Below, in pieces: positions 23,280-34,382 of a DNA stretch of 64,000 bases (position 1 is its first letter; each line of letters opens with the position of its first letter). The notes beneath the pieces were generated by a model. The model was given only the letters and a program-made list of their open reading frames with translations, had not been told where the DNA came from and made no database searches. The position numbers were made by a program, and so were the translations under genes. The DNA comes from a virus (Duplodnaviria > Caudoviricetes): IMG/VR virus record IMGVR_UViG_3300031555_004297; one strand, written 5' to 3'.

Positions 23280-23437
23280 ACAAATCGAATACAGCTGGAG
23301 AACGCGCTCCAGCTGTATTCTTTTTTGCGGTAAAATAATTTACGGAGGAGAAATCAACAACAATGAAAAGAAAACCATCACGTCTCACCACATGGAGGTT
23401 CAGAAATTATGACAAAGGCAGTAAGTTCATCATAATT
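23280..23437 (-). ncRNA. Candidate late sRNA with two anti-Shine-Dalgarno/anti-start modules
   Basis: AACA-ATAAAT-TA promoter at 23448-23437; 5' hairpin; two CCUCC motifs; terminator hairpin at 23288-23320. Confidence 0.5.
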
Positions 23438-23446
23438 AATTTATTG

Positions 23447-24631
23447 TTAATATCTATTCTCCACAATGTCGGGATAACTTACGAAAAGTCCGTAAGATTT
23501 ATGCTTGTAAACAACTGTAGAAGAAAGTTTATCGCGAAGAGCAACAAACTTATCATATGCAGTATTCCACTTGCCAAGCTCGAACTCATCACAGTTCTGA
23601 GAGTTACGATATTCGTCACAAATAGAAATATTGCTATTGATCTGCCTCATAAGGTAAAGAGCATCATCTTCATCTTCTACATTCTTAACCTGCATTGCAA
23701 GTTCATAATAAGCAGAATCGATCATCTTAAGGTTCTTCATTCTCATTTTTCTAAGAATCTTCTGTCCCACAGATTCCTTACCAGCCGATTCGCTAAATAT
23801 CATATCATCATCGATTCTCTGAATACGACGATATACATTACCAATCTCAAGCTTTTCAAGTCTAGAGCCGGTCATTGCCTTCATATCAGCAAGAGTCTTC
23901 ATAGCTCCAATACGCTGAAGCTTGATCTGGCGGTATAGACTAAGAGTCCAGCTAAAGATAATAAACTTGCTAGTCTCGCTATTCTCATAAAGCTTCATAT
24001 TGCCATTATTGATCTTTCTATATGCATCTACGAGATCTTCTTCCATTCCATATGCATTAATAAATTCATCATTGTAAATCTCAGCAACATCGGAAGTATA
24101 GAAGATAGAATCACACTTAGAAAGATAATCTTTCAGTCCATATGCAAGAATCTCTTTATAATGGATAGACTGGGATACACGAATATGATCTTTATTGTTA
24201 GCCAGATAGATATTGAGGGCATTGCGAGCATTCTCGATAGGAGTAGAATCTCCAGTAAGATGATTAACTTCTCTAAGAAGAAGCGCTGTAAGTCCTCTTA
24301 CAGAAATATCGGTAACAGGATCGAAGAGTTTAGAATCAAACTCGACAAGATAGCTGCTAATACGATACTTCTCTTCATCATTGGCCAAATATCCATAAAT
24401 TTCATCAGCATCAATCATAGGAATAATCTTAATGCCGAAATACATATTGTCATTATTTGTTGTATATAGAACCTCTTTACACTCAGAATCTGTAAAGAAA
24501 CGATTTAATTCATTCTTTAAAGATCTAAGATCTTCAGGCTCCACAGAAGTAGTCTGATCTTTCATTCTAGCAAATACAGAATGAAAGACAGAAAAGTCGT
24601 ACATAATTTCGCTCATGTTTATATCCTCCAT
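23447..24631 (-). CDS. Probable head protein with degenerate zincin motif
   Basis: LLLREVNHL in place of HExxH; FSESA site; late promoter; next to major capsid gene. Confidence 0.6.
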   Translation of the reverse strand: MEDINMSEIMYDFSVFHSVFARMKDQTTSVEPEDLRSLKNELNRFFTDSECKEVLYTTNNDNMYFGIKIIPMIDADEIYGYLANDEEKYRISSYLVEFDSKLFDPVTDISVRGLTALLLREVNHLTGDSTPIENARNALNIYLANNKDHIRVSQSIHYKEILAYGLKDYLSKCDSIFYTSDVAEIYNDEFINAYGMEEDLVDAYRKINNGNMKLYENSETSKFIIFSWTLSLYRQIKLQRIGAMKTLADMKAMTGSRLEKLEIGNVYRRIQRIDDDMIFSESAGKESVGQKILRKMRMKNLKMIDSAYYELAMQVKNVEDEDDALYLMRQINSNISICDEYRNSQNCDEFELGKWNTAYDKFVALRDKLSSTVVYKHKSYGLFVSYPDIVENRY

Positions 24632-30005: not shown

Positions 30006-30656
30006 TTAAATATACCAACCACGAGGAGTATAAGTTACCTCGGGCTCGGGATAGTTTGCCTTATCATCACAAGCGCAGTCGATACAACAGTGCTTTTTAT
30101 CATTAACAGCTGCTTGTCTTTCAAGAGCTCTATCCATAAGATCCTTCATAATATGATATCCTTCGACAAGAGCTCCGGGGTTAGAAATCGGAACAAGAAT
30201 TGCAGAAGGTCTTTCTGCATTTCCAATAATACATGCCTCTGTTACGGGACCGAGATCGTGAGTGCTACTATCTTCACCAATACCACAATATCTCAAACCA
30301 TTATTGAGAGTATTTACGATAAGAGTAGAAGTCTTACCAGCCTCAGTAATCGGAACTGCAGGAATAATTGCCGCAAAACGGCTATCATTATAACCCTTAA
30401 TATGACCATCAAGGGTATTTACCATACCATTATCAGAAAGGATTGCATGAGCCACATCCATTCTTTCCATATAAGGATACAATCTCTCGACTACATCATA
30501 AGGATCGATGGGATTATTAAAGAAATCCATGGGTTCATAAGGTGCTACGACCATCTCGGCTGCACATGCCTCACATTTTTCAAGTTCAGCAGGATCAATT
30601 CGATTAATCGCTTCTGCGGGAACCTGAATTACTTTTGCTTTAAGCTTTCTTTTCAT
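30006..30656 (-). CDS. Hypothetical early protein
   Basis: Early promoter near 30718, SD AAGGAG, terminator at 29969-29995. Confidence 0.75.
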   Translation of the reverse strand: MKRKLKAKVIQVPAEAINRIDPAELEKCEACAAEMVVAPYEPMDFFNNPIDPYDVVERLYPYMERMDVAHAILSDNGMVNTLDGHIKGYNDSRFAAIIPAVPITEAGKTSTLIVNTLNNGLRYCGIGEDSSTHDLGPVTEACIIGNAERPSAILVPISNPGALVEGYHIMKDLMDRALERQAAVNDKKHCCIDCACDDKANYPEPEVTYTPRGWYI

Positions 30657-30745
30657 AGTTTAATTCTCCTTTAATGAATTAAGTATTTTTAATTGGAAGT
30701 TGACCTTCCATTACTTTTATAATATATACTCAAAAATTAATTATA

Positions 30746-30856
30746 CAAAAGAAAGTCCGAGAATCCTGCTCTGGATTCTCGGAAGAAAGGTGCCCACATG
30801 CTGCTATATGCCAAAACAACACTCGGAGGTAACAACGGAATCTGAATAACACCGTC
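30746..30856 (-). ncRNA. Candidate ~110-nt late sRNA with anti-SD motifs
   Basis: AACA-TATCAA-TG promoter at 30867-30856; UUACCUCC and CACCUUUC motifs; terminator hairpin at 30756-30783 plus U-run. Confidence 0.5.
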
Positions 30857-30876
30857 ATTGATATGTTATATTATGA

Positions 30877-31169
30877 TAAAAATATTCCGGATGGGCGTCA
30901 ACCATCCGGAATACCAGGCCCTGTTAAATAAGGGTCCTTACATACGACACAACGCCTCGGAAAATATTATGCCTTTCTTTAGTGCAACAACTCACTAGAA
31001 AGGCATGTCGGGCCGCCTCTTCTCTTATGATGCCCCATTCACACACCATAAGAGTCCATAATCAAGCTTTAATTAAGTAGCGCTTTGTATATAAAACCCC
31101 AACGAGGTCAGCTTTATATACTATTGATTATTTAAGCACCACCAAAAACAATCAATCATTGCACTACTT
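30877..31169 (-). ncRNA. Candidate ~290-nt structured late ncRNA
   Basis: AACA-AAAATA-TA promoter at 31180-31169; six or more stems whose mismatches become G-U on the minus strand; terminator at 30883-30913; no convincing SD-led ORF. Confidence 0.6.
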
Positions 31170-31261
31170 ATATTTTTGTTGACATTGCAGTAACTTATTA
31201 CCTCAATAAATTGAATGCTTGTTTCAACATATCGGTAAATGAAAATAGGAGGTTGCTTATA

Positions 31262-32086
31262 ATGCCTAACAATATTCCTACGATTGGATACGTTATTCTT
31301 GAAAGCGCACCTCTGGAGGCTCCTGAGGTTAGCGTTATTTCTGATACCGGAAATAGAGTAATCGGTGAAGGAGTTATCCAGGAAGCCGAAGAAGAAAATA
31401 GAAATGGTCGTTGCTATCTTCATAACGACCTGCTTAGAGAAATCCAGTGTCCTAGAACAATGGAGCTTCTTACTACTGGAAATATGTTTGCTGAAAATGG
31501 TCACCCGATGGATATGTCGATGGCTAGACAGCAGACTATCGATCCCAATAACAGAGTTGCTAGATTCCTTAAGATTTGGATGGAAGGCAATAAAGTTATG
31601 GCGCAATTTAAAGGGTCTAATGACCCCAAGGGTGAATCTTTCGATCAGGACCTTCGTGAAGGGTTGAAACCTAGCTGGTCGCTTAGAGCTCTTGGATCTC
31701 TCAATAACATTAGGGGTAGAAATGTAGTCGAAAATCTTCGTGTAATCACTTGGGATAGAGTTATTTATCCTTCTCATCCTGGTGCTTATACAACCCGTCT
31801 TGTAACCGAGTCTGCAGCATATGCTAATGAGATTGCTCATATCGAAAGAGTCAATGAAAACGGCTGTCTCATTCCGATTACAAACGATAGCATTCTCTCG
31901 TATCTTAAGACAGAGTCTGCTAATATCAAGAGTCTTCTTTCTCAGATTGATTTTCTTTACGAGTCTGCTACTATCGTAAGAGGAAATCAGGTTCGTCTCG
32001 TTGCAAAGAATGGTGATATCTTCGTGGTTAACCTCGAGAGTCATATTTCTAACGAGATTCAGGCATACTGCAAAAAGATGATCTGA
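31262..32086 (+). CDS. Prohead core protease (T4 gp21-like)
   Basis: GVIQEA...NRNGRCY, ENGHP, SWSLRALGS, TWD.V..PSH..AY; ATG at 31262 after AGGAGG. Confidence 0.88.
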   Translation: MPNNIPTIGYVILESAPLEAPEVSVISDTGNRVIGEGVIQEAEEENRNGRCYLHNDLLREIQCPRTMELLTTGNMFAENGHPMDMSMARQQTIDPNNRVARFLKIWMEGNKVMAQFKGSNDPKGESFDQDLREGLKPSWSLRALGSLNNIRGRNVVENLRVITWDRVIYPSHPGAYTTRLVTESAAYANEIAHIERVNENGCLIPITNDSILSYLKTESANIKSLLSQIDFLYESATIVRGNQVRLVAKNGDIFVVNLESHISNEIQAYCKKMI

Positions 32087-32201: not shown

Positions 32202-34382
32202 ATGGCTGTAATGCGTAATAGAACTCAAACGACTATCTATTACCATATGAGTACTACTAACAAAAGTTTCTTAGAGATGTATAAATATCTCGAGAATACT
32301 GGTGTTAAGAACTGCAAATTTATGCTTGTTCTTCTTGATCCTGATTTGGCTAGAGTAGATCCGTATGATCCTAAGCTTCCTCAGGTTATGAAGAGAAAGA
32401 TTTTAAGAGAATGTATATATAATCCATGGTACTTCTTTAGAGAAATTGTAAGAATCCCGGACTCTGGTCAAGCCACAGGTGTTAAGTTTCAGCTTACTCG
32501 TGGAAATCTAGCTCTGCTATTCTGCTTGATGCTCAATCTAAATATATTCTTGGAGCAACCTCGTCAGACTGGTAAGACAATTTCATCTCTATGCTGGTAT
32601 CTATACCTCTTTAACTTTGGTACTGCAAATGCCGAAATGTCCTTCTTGAATAAGAAGTTTGAAGACTCTAAACTCAACCTTCAACGTATTAAGGATATTA
32701 GATCTTTGCTACCAAGCTATCTTAAAATGGATGAAGCATTTGCTCCTGATGGATCTCGTATTAAGGGTAAAAATAACATTGAGAGCATGCAGCATCCTAT
32801 CAACAGAAATAATATCAGAACTGTCGCATCTGCAAGATCTAAGGTTGCAGCAGCAAGTCTGATGCGTGGTCGTACGACACCTATTATTTACATAGACGAG
32901 TATGGCTTTATTTTGTATAATGATGTCATTTATACAAACATGGTTCCTGCATTCAATACAGCAGCTAATAATGCTAAAAGAAATGGAACCCCTTATGGAA
33001 TGCTTATTACAACAACGCCTGGTATGCTTACCACGGATGAAGGTGTCGAGGCATTCACTCTTAAGGAGTCGGCTACTCCTTTCAGTGAAAGATGGTATGA
33101 TCTAAGCAATGACGAAATCATGAATATCGTTGCTAGTAATACCAACTCTAACTTTGTATATATTAAGTATACTTATCAGCAGCTTGGTAAATCCGAGCAA
33201 TGGTTTAAAGATCTTTGTATCACAATGCGTAAGGATTGGGATGCAATCCGCCGTGAGGTTCTTCTTGAATGGTCGAATTCGTCCGAAAACTCTCCTTTCC
33301 GTGCAGAAGATCTTGATACTATCAAGGGATTACTTAAACAACCGCTTAATACAGTGCTCATGCTCAATAAATTCGAATTGAAGATATATGAGCAGATTAA
33401 TCTAAAGTATCCGCCTATCATCGGTGTTGACGTCTCAGGAGGGTACCAAAGAGACTCGTCTGCTATTACTGTTATAGATTCTTATTCTACAAGAGTATGT
33501 GCTGAATTAAATAGTAACTTTATCTCTACTCCAGAACTTGCACAAGTTATCTACCATATTGTATCTCAATGGATGCCGAATGCAGTAGTAAATATCGAGC
33601 GCAATGGAGGCTTTGGATCATCTGTTATTGCACGTCTACTTCAAACTTCTATAAAGAAAAATCTTTGGTACACTATTAAAGATAAGATTGTAGAAGAAAG
33701 ATTTAATGGGCCTACAGTACATCGCAGAACCCAAAAGACTAAAGTTTATGGATCTGACTCTACCAAACAAGAACGTGATGAACTCATGGAAATCTTACGC
33801 GATCGCGTAGAGTATCATAAAGATAAGATTATTTCTCCCACCATTTATCAAGAGCTCTGTGGTATGGAAGTTAAGAAAAGTGGTAAGATAGAGCATTCTA
33901 CAAATACTCATGACGACCAAGTATTCTCCTGGCTCTGGGCGCTTTATATCTACTATAATGGCGGAGATTTGATGAATAACTGGGGGATCGAACGTAGAGT
34001 TCTTAAGACTGATGCGGATCTTGAAGAAGCTGTTGTCGATCTCTCTGAAAATGATAAGAGCATTACTCAGGAACTCGATCTTATAGAAGATGAAGAAGTT
34101 ACTGAGCAGATGCAGGCTATACAGAATGCTCCCGGACGTATGGGTTATGAAGAATGGATGCGTTCTGAATCTGAAAAAGATGAGGCTGCCATGGATAAGC
34201 TCTTGGCTAATAAGGCTGTACAGAAATCTTTAGCTGAAAGATATCATGTTGTGGTACCTCAAACAAATAAATCAATACAGACTATTCCTACAGAAGTTTT
34301 CTTAGACTTTAATACTCCAGAAGAAGAAATTGAAGTTAGAAATAACGCAGTTCTTGTAGGTAATATGAGTAAATACTGGTAA
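32202..34382 (+). CDS. terL: Terminase large subunit
   Basis: Walker A PRQTGKT, Walker B IIYIDE, TTTP motif III, nuclease IGVDVSGG and HDDQV. Confidence 0.93.
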   Translation: MAVMRNRTQTTIYYHMSTTNKSFLEMYKYLENTGVKNCKFMLVLLDPDLARVDPYDPKLPQVMKRKILRECIYNPWYFFREIVRIPDSGQATGVKFQLTRGNLALLFCLMLNLNIFLEQPRQTGKTISSLCWYLYLFNFGTANAEMSFLNKKFEDSKLNLQRIKDIRSLLPSYLKMDEAFAPDGSRIKGKNNIESMQHPINRNNIRTVASARSKVAAASLMRGRTTPIIYIDEYGFILYNDVIYTNMVPAFNTAANNAKRNGTPYGMLITTTPGMLTTDEGVEAFTLKESATPFSERWYDLSNDEIMNIVASNTNSNFVYIKYTYQQLGKSEQWFKDLCITMRKDWDAIRREVLLEWSNSSENSPFRAEDLDTIKGLLKQPLNTVLMLNKFELKIYEQINLKYPPIIGVDVSGGYQRDSSAITVIDSYSTRVCAELNSNFISTPELAQVIYHIVSQWMPNAVVNIERNGGFGSSVIARLLQTSIKKNLWYTIKDKIVEERFNGPTVHRRTQKTKVYGSDSTKQERDELMEILRDRVEYHKDKIISPTIYQELCGMEVKKSGKIEHSTNTHDDQVFSWLWALYIYYNGGDLMNNWGIERRVLKTDADLEEAVVDLSENDKSITQELDLIEDEEVTEQMQAIQNAPGRMGYEEWMRSESEKDEAAMDKLLANKAVQKSLAERYHVVVPQTNKSIQTIPTEVFLDFNTPEEEIEVRNNAVLVGNMSKYW

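What the first reader, a model, noticed from the sequence alone, without database searches (positions are those of the whole stretch)
30877..31180. ~290-nt highly structured late ncRNA divergent from the prohead protease and terminase genes
The RNA starts at a late promoter with a closing stem (UAAGUAGUGC/GCGCUACUUA) enclosing two hairpins. Then come CUCUUAUG/CAUAAGAG, AUGCCUUUCU/AGAAAGGCAU and GACCCU/AGGGCC stems and a terminator. Loops are G/U-rich (UUGGUGGUG, GUUGGGG, GUGUGAAUGGGG, GUUGUUG). It resembles no tRNA, tmRNA or riboswitch I recognise. Inference: a protein sponge, a decoy for C-rich RNAs, or an assembly-associated RNA.
Basis: partly seen in the sequence, partly recalled or inferred. 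Interest (0 to 1): 0.75.

Follow-up and report, generated by a model that had tools for sequence, protein, structure and literature searches.

The report
Orphan late structured RNA, jumbo phage
An uncultured giant phage and its three closest known lineages carry a stand-alone gene for a roughly 300-base, tightly folded non-coding RNA. Its helices are preserved by compensating mutations, it matches no catalogued RNA family, and its job is still unknown.

Summary
Window 31169 to 30875 (minus strand) has the anatomy of a 295-nt transcription unit. An AR9-type late promoter motif (AACA-N6-TA) places +1 at the first base of a closing stem. That stem encloses two hairpins (a three-way junction). Two more long hairpins, a small conserved hairpin and a strong intrinsic terminator follow. 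The fold is far more stable than shuffles (z = -7.0).

Relatives with 75-76% identical prohead protease show no detectable nucleotide similarity. Even so, three further sequences (L004, L002, L042) have the same architecture at the syntenic place. In the junction, 21 of 31 base pairs change on both sides and 96.6% of cells stay paired. G-U pairs fix the RNA strand as minus.

There is no Rfam match, no conserved ORF, no tandem repeats and no paralogue. Covariance models and pattern scans found no homologue outside this narrow clade.

Function is not shown. My best inference is weak: an abundant, stable late decoy whose variable number of hairpins displays C-poor, G/U-rich, Shine-Dalgarno-like loops. 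I found no complementary targets in the phage genome, no pRNA-like interlocking loops and no CsrA-type GGA loops in the window copy.

The scan had already noted this same stretch and the adjacent small RNA. It is a new RNA family of a known kind, of moderate interest.

The parts
31169..31180 (-). AR9-type late (non-virion RNAP) promoter motif AACA-N6-TA; predicted +1 at 31169
   Evidence: Sequence. AR9 consensus from PMC5312081 and PMC5449584. Motif is 4.4-fold enriched in non-ORF space of this genome. Genome has two RNAP beta-like genes. Not shown experimentally.
30875..31169 (-). Predicted 295-nt non-coding transcript (RNA1)
   Evidence: Fold z = -7.0. Promoter and terminator as listed. No conserved ORF. 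No Rfam match.
31075..31169 (-). Domain 1: three-way junction. P1 (31161-31169 / 31075-31083) encloses P2 (31123-31156) and P3 (31087-31121).
   Evidence: MFE of the domain alone. Inverted repeats I7, I9, I10. Covariation: 21/31 pairs changed on both sides, 96.6% of cells paired. RNAalifold gives the same consensus.
31022..31054 (-). P4 hairpin (12 bp) with a G/U-rich loop; a hairpin at this position is present in all four homologues
   Evidence: I6; relatives.
30969..31006 (-). P5 hairpin (10 + 4 bp). Extra hairpins are also present in L004 (two there); absent in L002/L042.
   Evidence: I5.
30916..30948 (-). P7 module: 5' flank AUGUAAGG, 7-bp hairpin, loop UAUUUAAC. This is the only sequence-conserved element of the family.
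   Evidence: Alignment A8. 3 of 7 pairs changed on both sides, 92.9% paired. The pattern and model R3 find it once per genome and only in this clade.
30875..30915 (-). Intrinsic terminator (14-bp stem, 7-nt loop) plus U tract
   Evidence: I2. Each homologue has a terminator of different sequence at the same place.
30746..30867 (-). Context: second small late unit (RNA2) directly downstream. It has its own AACA-N6-TG promoter, CCUUUC/ACCUCC motifs and a terminator at 30756-30783.
   Evidence: Followed up separately by the scan.
30006..30656 (-). Context: gene X, a 216-aa orphan protein behind an early-type promoter (30702-30719). It is syntenic with RNA1 and RNA2 in all four RNA1-bearing lineages.
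   Evidence: no family or fold match.
31226..32086 (+). Context: divergent late promoter (AACA-N6-TA, +1 near 31237) and the prohead protease gene (31262-32086); TerL follows at 32202-34382.

Best explanation
RNA1 is an independently transcribed non-coding RNA of about 295 nt. It is probably made late in infection by the phage's own non-virion RNA polymerase and ended by its own intrinsic terminator.

Both ends are locked in helices: P1 begins at +1 and the terminator closes the 3' end. This should make the RNA long-lived and abundant.

Inferred mechanism: it works in trans as a multivalent decoy. The helices act as scaffolds; their sequences drift freely and the total number of hairpins, terminator included, varies from 5 to 8 between lineages. 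They hold out C-poor, G/U- and purine-rich apical loops and linkers (GWGGWG, GGUGA, GAGGCG, AAGG). These elements resemble ribosome-binding sites. They could soak up a pyrimidine-rich single-stranded partner, either anti-Shine-Dalgarno-type RNA or an RNA-binding protein.

The conserved 3' hairpin P7 would be a separate protein-binding or stability element.

Supported in silico: gene anatomy, fold and covariation. Inferred: transcription timing, and all of the decoy mechanism. I put about 0.9 on 'real structured ncRNA gene' and about 0.3 on 'decoy'.
For: Gene anatomy:
- Canonical late promoter motif with +1 at the first base of P1.
- Two RNAP beta-like genes in the genome.
- Strong terminator.

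Structure:
- z-scores of -7.0, -6.8 and -6.3 in three lineages.
- Each homologue folds on its own into the same three-way junction.
- A model built from L002 and L042 alone ranks the window and L004 junctions among the best non-self hits.
- 21/31 pairs covary, against 6.5 +/- 2.1 in shuffles and 3-6 when the partners are slid.
- Thirteen G-U cells and only four unpaired cells fix the strand as minus.

Non-coding: no conserved ORF.

Decoy-like traits:
- The number of hairpin modules varies.
- Unpaired regions hold about 10% C.
- There are 3-5 anti-SD-complementary sites per RNA, against 1.35 +/- 1.17 in random windows. L004 carries a perfect GGAGGUGAU in a loop.
- No pseudoknot or conserved core of the kind a ribozyme or riboswitch would need.
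- The genome is reported to hold several late anti-RBS small RNAs, one directly adjacent (unchecked notes).
Against: - No transcript data exist.
- No partner was found. Complements of the loops occur in the genome only antisense to glycine codons.
- Pairing with the phage's other candidate small RNAs is no better than the 2.6th percentile over 80 tests.
- The window copy has the weakest SD-likeness of the four (best -10.6 kcal/mol).
- No single loop motif is shared by all lineages. The enrichment of G-rich motifs is about 2- to 5-fold on only three independent lineages.
- The promoters of the relatives deviate at position -8 (AACG, AACT), which abolishes AR9 transcription in vitro.
- L006 (71% protease identity) has only a 153-nt RNA at this position, so the RNA is dispensable or fast-evolving.
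Confidence: 0.3

Rival explanations
1. Trans-acting base-pairing regulator. One or more exposed loops act as seeds against host mRNAs (host unknown) or against phage mRNAs not recognised here.
For: Stand-alone promoter-to-terminator unit with exposed single-stranded loops. The same genome is reported to carry other late antisense-type small RNAs.
Against: No credible sense-strand target in the 185-kb phage genome. Loop sequences are not conserved between lineages. At 300 nt with many hairpins it is atypical for a seed-type sRNA. The host genome is unknown, so host targets are untested.
Confidence: 0.17
2. Cis-acting leader or attenuator. RNA1 (with RNA2) is the long 5' leader of a late transcript of gene X, and its terminator is a regulated read-through point.
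For: Same orientation as gene X and constant synteny RNA1-RNA2-gene X in four lineages. [quoted passage not shown]
Against: Two strong terminators lie in series, and RNA2 has its own promoter. No alternative antiterminator pairing or conserved ligand-pocket-like core. No T-box or riboswitch hit even at E <= 10. RNA2 is reported in lineages that lack RNA1.
Confidence: 0.1
3. Decoy against a host defence or host RNA-binding enzyme. An abundant structured RNA occupies a host nuclease, sensor or chaperone, in the way adenovirus VA RNA or RNA anti-CRISPRs work.
For: Late, predicted stable, multi-hairpin, fast-evolving and lineage-restricted. This is the pattern expected of arms-race elements.
Against: Nothing specific supports it. 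The hairpins are unlike one another, so they are not repeat mimics. No defence-related neighbours. Host unknown.
Confidence: 0.1
4. Head-assembly or packaging RNA analogous to phi29 pRNA.
For: It lies in the head-morphogenesis cluster next to the protease and TerL. Domain 1 is a three-way junction closed by the 5'/3' helix.
Against: No complementary loop pair for ring formation in any lineage (inspection; the automated scan had a 6-bp floor and found nothing). No Rfam pRNA hit. The terminase is a large 726-aa enzyme, not a gp16-type ATPase. In L002 a Myb-like gene separates the RNA from the protease. More distant relatives with the same head genes lack the RNA.
Confidence: 0.04
5. No function as an RNA. 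The region is hairpin-rich intergenic DNA (a terminator cluster, a DNA-level site such as pac or an origin, or a decaying element).
For: Narrow distribution, rapid sequence turnover, and a reduced copy in L006.
Against: Helices are kept by double-sided changes while the primary sequence is lost. G-U pairs are strand-specific. The promoter +1 coincides with P1 in all four copies.
Confidence: 0.08

Closest known systems
CsrB/RsmY/RsmZ-type protein-sponge RNAs
   Same: Stand-alone promoter-to-terminator RNA. A string of hairpins with purine-rich apical loops. The number of hairpins varies between relatives. The helices are scaffolds.
   Different: No A(N)GGA motif in the window's loops. No known CsrA-like partner. 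Phage-encoded and predicted late. Has a three-way junction. No Rfam match.
Prophage/phage anti-sRNA sponges (AgvB, AsxR, SprY), as named in the earlier scan note
   Same: Phage-borne RNA that could titrate another RNA. It sits next to a small RNA with anti-ribosome-site motifs.
   Different: Those are short and show extended, specific complementarity to their sRNA. No such complementarity was found here.
phi29 pRNA (Rfam RF00044)
   Same: Phage RNA near packaging genes. Three-way junction closed by the paired 5' and 3' ends.
   Different: No interlocking loops. About twice the size, with extra domains. A different type of packaging ATPase. Predicted late rather than early. No model match.
Large orphan structured RNAs linked to phages (ROOL, GOLLD) and the two phiKZ ncRNAs found by Grad-seq (PMC8545117)
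   Same: Phage-associated, structured, function unknown. Shows that giant phages encode overlooked ncRNAs.
   Different: ROOL and GOLLD are 500-800 nt with conserved cores and pseudoknots. RNA1 is a simple hairpin string with one junction. It is unrelated in sequence and restricted to one small clade.
Adenovirus VA RNA / EBV EBERs (analogy only)
   Same: Abundant, compact, highly base-paired viral RNAs that act as protein decoys.
   Different: Eukaryotic viruses, Pol III transcripts, known protein partners. No homology.

Membership tests
Any Rfam 15 family | Score at or above the family gathering threshold | tested here: not met
   0 hits in the whole window at gathering thresholds. At E <= 10 on 30650-31270 the best hit is 18 bits against cut-offs of 47-83, and all hits are implausible.
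AR9-type late transcription unit | AACA-N6-T(A/G) with the last base as +1, in a phage with two multisubunit RNAPs | tested here: met
   Motif at 31180-31169. Consensus from PMC5312081 and PMC5449584. Motif enriched in non-ORF space. Two beta-like genes. The relatives have AACG or AACT at -8.
AR9-type late transcription unit | Transcript observed late in infection | not testable with these tools
   Uncultured phage; no RNA data at hand.
phi29 pRNA | Three-way junction with paired 5'/3' ends | tested here: met
   Domain 1 in all four homologues.
phi29 pRNA | Two loops complementary in trans that interlock into a ring | tested here: not met
   By inspection of the P2 and P3 loops, at most 3 bp of complementarity in any lineage. 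The automated scan found no helix of 6 bp or more at -6 kcal/mol or better between unpaired segments. That floor would not have caught a 4-bp pRNA-type kiss.
phi29 pRNA | Match to RF00044 and a phi29-type packaging ATPase | tested here: not met
   No Rfam hit. TerL is a 726-aa phrog_2-type terminase.
CsrB/Rsm sponge | Repeated GGA (A(N)GGA) in hairpin loops | tested here: not met
   The window's apical loops contain no GGA. L002, L042 and L004 have some.
T-box / riboswitch leader | Conserved aptamer or T-box core with competing terminator and antiterminator | tested here: not met
   No Rfam hit at E <= 10. No conserved alternative pairing or pseudoknot. The downstream gene is an orphan protein, not a synthetase or transporter.
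Type III toxin-antitoxin antitoxin RNA (ToxI-like) | Tandem direct repeats upstream of a terminator and a toxin gene | tested here: not met
   No tandem repeats. Only two short direct-repeat pairs. Gene X has no PADLOC or Pfam hit.
6S RNA | Long irregular hairpin with a central open-promoter-like bubble | tested here: not met
   The fold is a junction plus separate hairpins. No Rfam 6S hit.

The most novel reading that the evidence does not exclude
RNA1 is a late, multivalent ribosome-binding-site mimic. Its loops bind anti-Shine-Dalgarno sequences, either the 16S rRNA 3' tail or the phage's own late anti-RBS small RNAs such as the adjacent RNA2. It would then buffer or time an RNA-only translation switch in a giant phage that already runs its own transcription.
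Probability: 0.1. Interest if true: 0.8.

Novelty: new variant of a known kind. Interest (0 to 1): 0.52.

Why it matters
Giant phages with their own RNA polymerases are known almost only through their proteins. Very few of their non-coding RNAs have been described: two in phiKZ (PMC8545117) and a single sentence in a 2026 review (PMC13282480).

This is a clean, covariation-supported example of a new structured RNA family in an AR9/PBS1-like lineage. It is one of several candidate RNAs in the same genome. If it proves to be a decoy in an RNA-based late regulatory circuit, that would add a layer of control not described for such viruses. If not, it remains a well-defined orphan RNA for later study.

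Tried and rejected
- blastn of the 606-nt intergenic region against 50,697 phage records: no match.
- blastn and nhmmer against 36 related loci: only the protease RBS matched.
The DNA of more than 100 protease clusters at 70-81% identity could therefore not be fetched.
- An alignment-based IMG/VR scan, a pattern scan and a GTDB genome scan added no new RNA1 copies.
- Covariance models R2 (junction) and R3 (P7) over 19-23 related phage genomes found only their training members. The weaker hits were coding sequence or plain terminators.
- Template-strand promoter mimic (UGUU) idea: read off the sequences, L004, L002 and L042 have no UGUU in RNA1, so it was dropped.
- Loop-complement targets turned out to be antisense to GGU-GGU glycine codons.
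- Whole-RNA duplexfold between RNA1 and RNA2 gave meaningless long-range pairings. Windowed tests were unremarkable.
- Small ORFs such as GAGG-N-AUG and the AUG-UAA start-stop are not conserved.
- Gene X as a clue:
  - The first AF2 model was poor (pLDDT 45.6).
  - A deeper alignment gave pLDDT 81.
  - There was no sequence-family or fold match. The best Foldseek E-value was 0.13 (viral library) and 0.28 (PDB), and the best VIA Z was 2.9.
- The other late structured RNA, near genome position 166,400, is not a paralogue.

Full report
**Setting.** The window is bases 96001-160000 of a 185-kb IMG/VR virus record, with about 36% G+C. The finding lies in a 605-nt gene-free stretch (30657-31261). 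On one side is a minus-strand gene for a 216-aa orphan protein (30006-30656, 'gene X'). On the other are plus-strand genes for a prohead protease (31262-32086; Peptidase_S77, phrog_207) and a large terminase (32202-34382).

The terminase is closest, at 33-39% identity, to Bacillus and Staphylococcus jumbo phages (BpSp, Goe21, S6). More distantly it resembles other jumbo phages of Erwinia, Pseudomonas and further hosts. The genome has two RNA polymerase beta-like genes. The phage therefore belongs to the group that transcribes with its own virion and non-virion polymerases.

**The observation.** The minus strand of 30870-31185 folds at -110.6 kcal/mol, against -76.0 +/- 4.9 for shuffles (z = -7.0). 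The plus strand reaches only -83.2.

The anatomy on the minus strand is:
- P1 (31161-31169 / 31075-31083) encloses P2 and P3, forming a three-way junction.
- A 20-nt linker follows.
- P4 spans 31022-31054.
- P5 spans 30969-31006.
- A linker contains GAGGCG twice.
- A small hairpin, P7, spans 30916-30938.
- With no spacer, a 14-bp terminator and U tract follow (30875-30915).

**Promoter.** AR9 late promoters are AACA-N6-T(A/G) with the last base as +1, and early ones are AAATATATATTAT-N6-G (PMC5312081). Positions -11 to -8 are essential in vitro (PMC5449584).

- The minus strand reads AACA-AAAATA-TA at 31180-31169. This puts +1 on the first base of P1.
- In this genome, 39 of 82 AACA-N6-TRA sites lie in the 11% of sequence outside long ORFs. 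AACC and AACG variants show no such bias.
- The protease has its own divergent AACA-N6-TA (+1 near 31237).
- A second AACA-N6-TG directly follows the RNA1 terminator and drives a 111-nt unit, RNA2 (30746-30856).
- A TATATATTAT early-type motif precedes gene X.

The predicted transcript therefore runs from 31169 to about 30875 and is 295 nt long.

**Relatives.**
- Protease-based scans gave 36 IMG/VR loci and 80 metagenome loci.
- Only the closest (69-76% protease identity) are informative:
  - L004 (the same as L005 and L007).
  - L002 (the same as L003).
  - L042.
  - L006.
- None shows nucleotide similarity to RNA1 by blastn or nhmmer.
- At the syntenic place, each of L004 (354 nt), L002 (244 nt) and L042 (240 nt) has the same plan:
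  - a promoter-like AAC-N7-T(A/G);
  - a closing stem that starts at the predicted +1 and encloses two hairpins;
  - one to three further hairpins;
  - the P7 hairpin;
  - a terminator;
  - then RNA2 and a gene X homologue.
- Their z-scores are -6.8 and -6.3.
- L006 has a different downstream gene and only a 153-nt RNA with a degenerate P7.
- More distant relatives (40-55% protease identity) have no room at this locus.

**Covariation.**
- A covariance model built from L002 and L042 alone ranked the window's and L004's junctions among the top non-self hits in 40 kb (17.4 and 16.8 bits).
- On the resulting four-sequence alignment, 96.6% of cells pair.
- 21 of 31 pairs change on both sides, against 6.5 +/- 2.1 in shuffles and 3-6 when the partners are slid by 1-3 columns.
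- RNAalifold predicts the same junction, with 22 of 32 compensated pairs.
- This alignment was fitted to the structure, which inflates such counts. The independent check is that each sequence folds alone into the same junction.
- P7 keeps 92.9% pairing, with three of seven pairs compensated. Its loop (UUUAUACA-like) and 5' flank (AUGWAAG) are conserved.
- Thirteen G-U cells, which would be A-C mismatches on the other strand, identify the minus strand as the RNA.

**What it is not.**
- No Rfam family matches, either at gathering thresholds in the whole window or at E <= 10 locally.
- There is no tRNA or tmRNA.
- There are no tandem repeats.
- There is no conserved ORF on either strand.
- No helix of 6 bp or more forms between unpaired segments.
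- There is no paralogue in the genome, and no homologue in 19-23 related phage genomes with the junction or P7 models.
- IMG/VR and GTDB scans added nothing.

**Function.** Nothing is shown. Three features suggest a display scaffold rather than a catalytic or ligand-sensing core:
- Helix sequences drift freely.
- The number of hairpin modules varies.
- Unpaired regions are C-poor (about 10% C) and carry G-rich, purine-rich motifs.

Sites complementary to a generic 16S 3' tail number 3-5 per RNA, against 1.35 +/- 1.17 in random 295-nt windows. L004 carries a perfect GGAGGUGAU in a loop, but the window copy is the weakest of the four.

Earlier notes of this scan report several late small RNAs with anti-ribosome-site segments in this genome, including RNA2 next door. 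These notes are unchecked.

I tested whether the RNA1 loops pair specifically with those regions or with anything else in the phage:
- The only near-perfect complements are antisense to glycine codons.
- The candidate small RNAs score no better than the 2.6th percentile over 80 tests.
- The small RNA at 23280-23448 pairs with the gene X start region but not with accessible parts of RNA1.

The decoy reading therefore rests on anatomy alone. I give it about 0.3, against about 0.9 that this is a genuine structured ncRNA gene.

**Neighbour gene.** Gene X is homologous in all four RNA1-bearing lineages. It belongs to an orphan family of about 107 clusters. A model built on 73 sequences is confident (pLDDT 81). 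Even so, it matches no Pfam, PHROG, PADLOC or PDB sequence profile, and no fold: the best Foldseek E-value was 0.13 (viral) and 0.28 (PDB), and the best VIA Z was 2.9. It gives no clue to the RNA's role.

**Limits.**
- There are only three independent lineages plus one close pair.
The many ENA/Logan relatives seen at protein level could therefore not be used.
- The host is unknown.
- No transcript data exist.
- The relatives' promoters deviate at position -8.

**Verdict.** This is a real, previously uncatalogued structured RNA gene of a small clade of uncultured jumbo phages, with unknown function. The scan had already noted the same stretch (e1-5647473) and had followed up the adjacent RNA2 (e1-5647501).

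Noticed in passing
window 30746-30867 (-): A second small late unit (RNA2) lies directly after the RNA1 terminator. It has an AACA-N6-TG promoter, a 111-nt body with ACCUCC and CCUUUC (anti-Shine-Dalgarno-like) segments, and a terminator at 30756-30783. A counterpart follows RNA1 in L004, L002, L042 and L006. The scan has already followed it up.
   Followed up: partly
window 30006-30656 (-), promoter 30702-30719: Gene X is a 216-aa orphan protein behind an AR9-like early promoter motif. Its family has about 107 clusters. The AF2 model is confident (pLDDT 81): a beta-rich core plus a long C-terminal helix. There is no sequence-family or fold match (best VIA Z 2.9).
   Followed up: yes
L002:2077-2829 (-): In the L002/L003 lineage a 250-aa Myb-like DNA-binding protein gene is inserted between RNA1 and the protease gene. 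The RNA stays with RNA2 and gene X, not with the protease.
   Followed up: partly
L004:2649-2723 (-): The L004 version of RNA1 has two extra hairpins. They score 19.4 bits with the junction model, and one loop (GGAGGUGAUGG) resembles the P3 loop of L002. This may be an internal duplication.
   Followed up: no
L006:2753-2905 (-): The 71%-identity relative has only a 153-nt late-promoter RNA in RNA1's place, with a degenerate P7. It also has an unrelated gene in place of gene X.
   Followed up: partly
window 30986-30997 (+): A plus-strand AACA-N6-TA lies inside the RNA1 gene (antisense, within P5), followed by an 18-codon ORF with a poorly spaced SD. It is not conserved in relatives and is probably chance.
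   Followed up: partly
G000:C1 ~166,380-166,650 (+), outside the window: Another promoter-to-terminator structured RNA begins with a similar purine-rich closing stem. It is otherwise unrelated to RNA1 and is not hit by either model.
   Followed up: partly
window 31067-31079 and 30669-30681: A 13-nt direct repeat (85% identical) links the P1 3' arm and start of linker 1 of RNA1 with the 5' UTR of gene X just upstream of its SD. The resemblance does not extend to the part of the gene X start region that the small RNA at 23280-23448 could pair with.
   Followed up: partly
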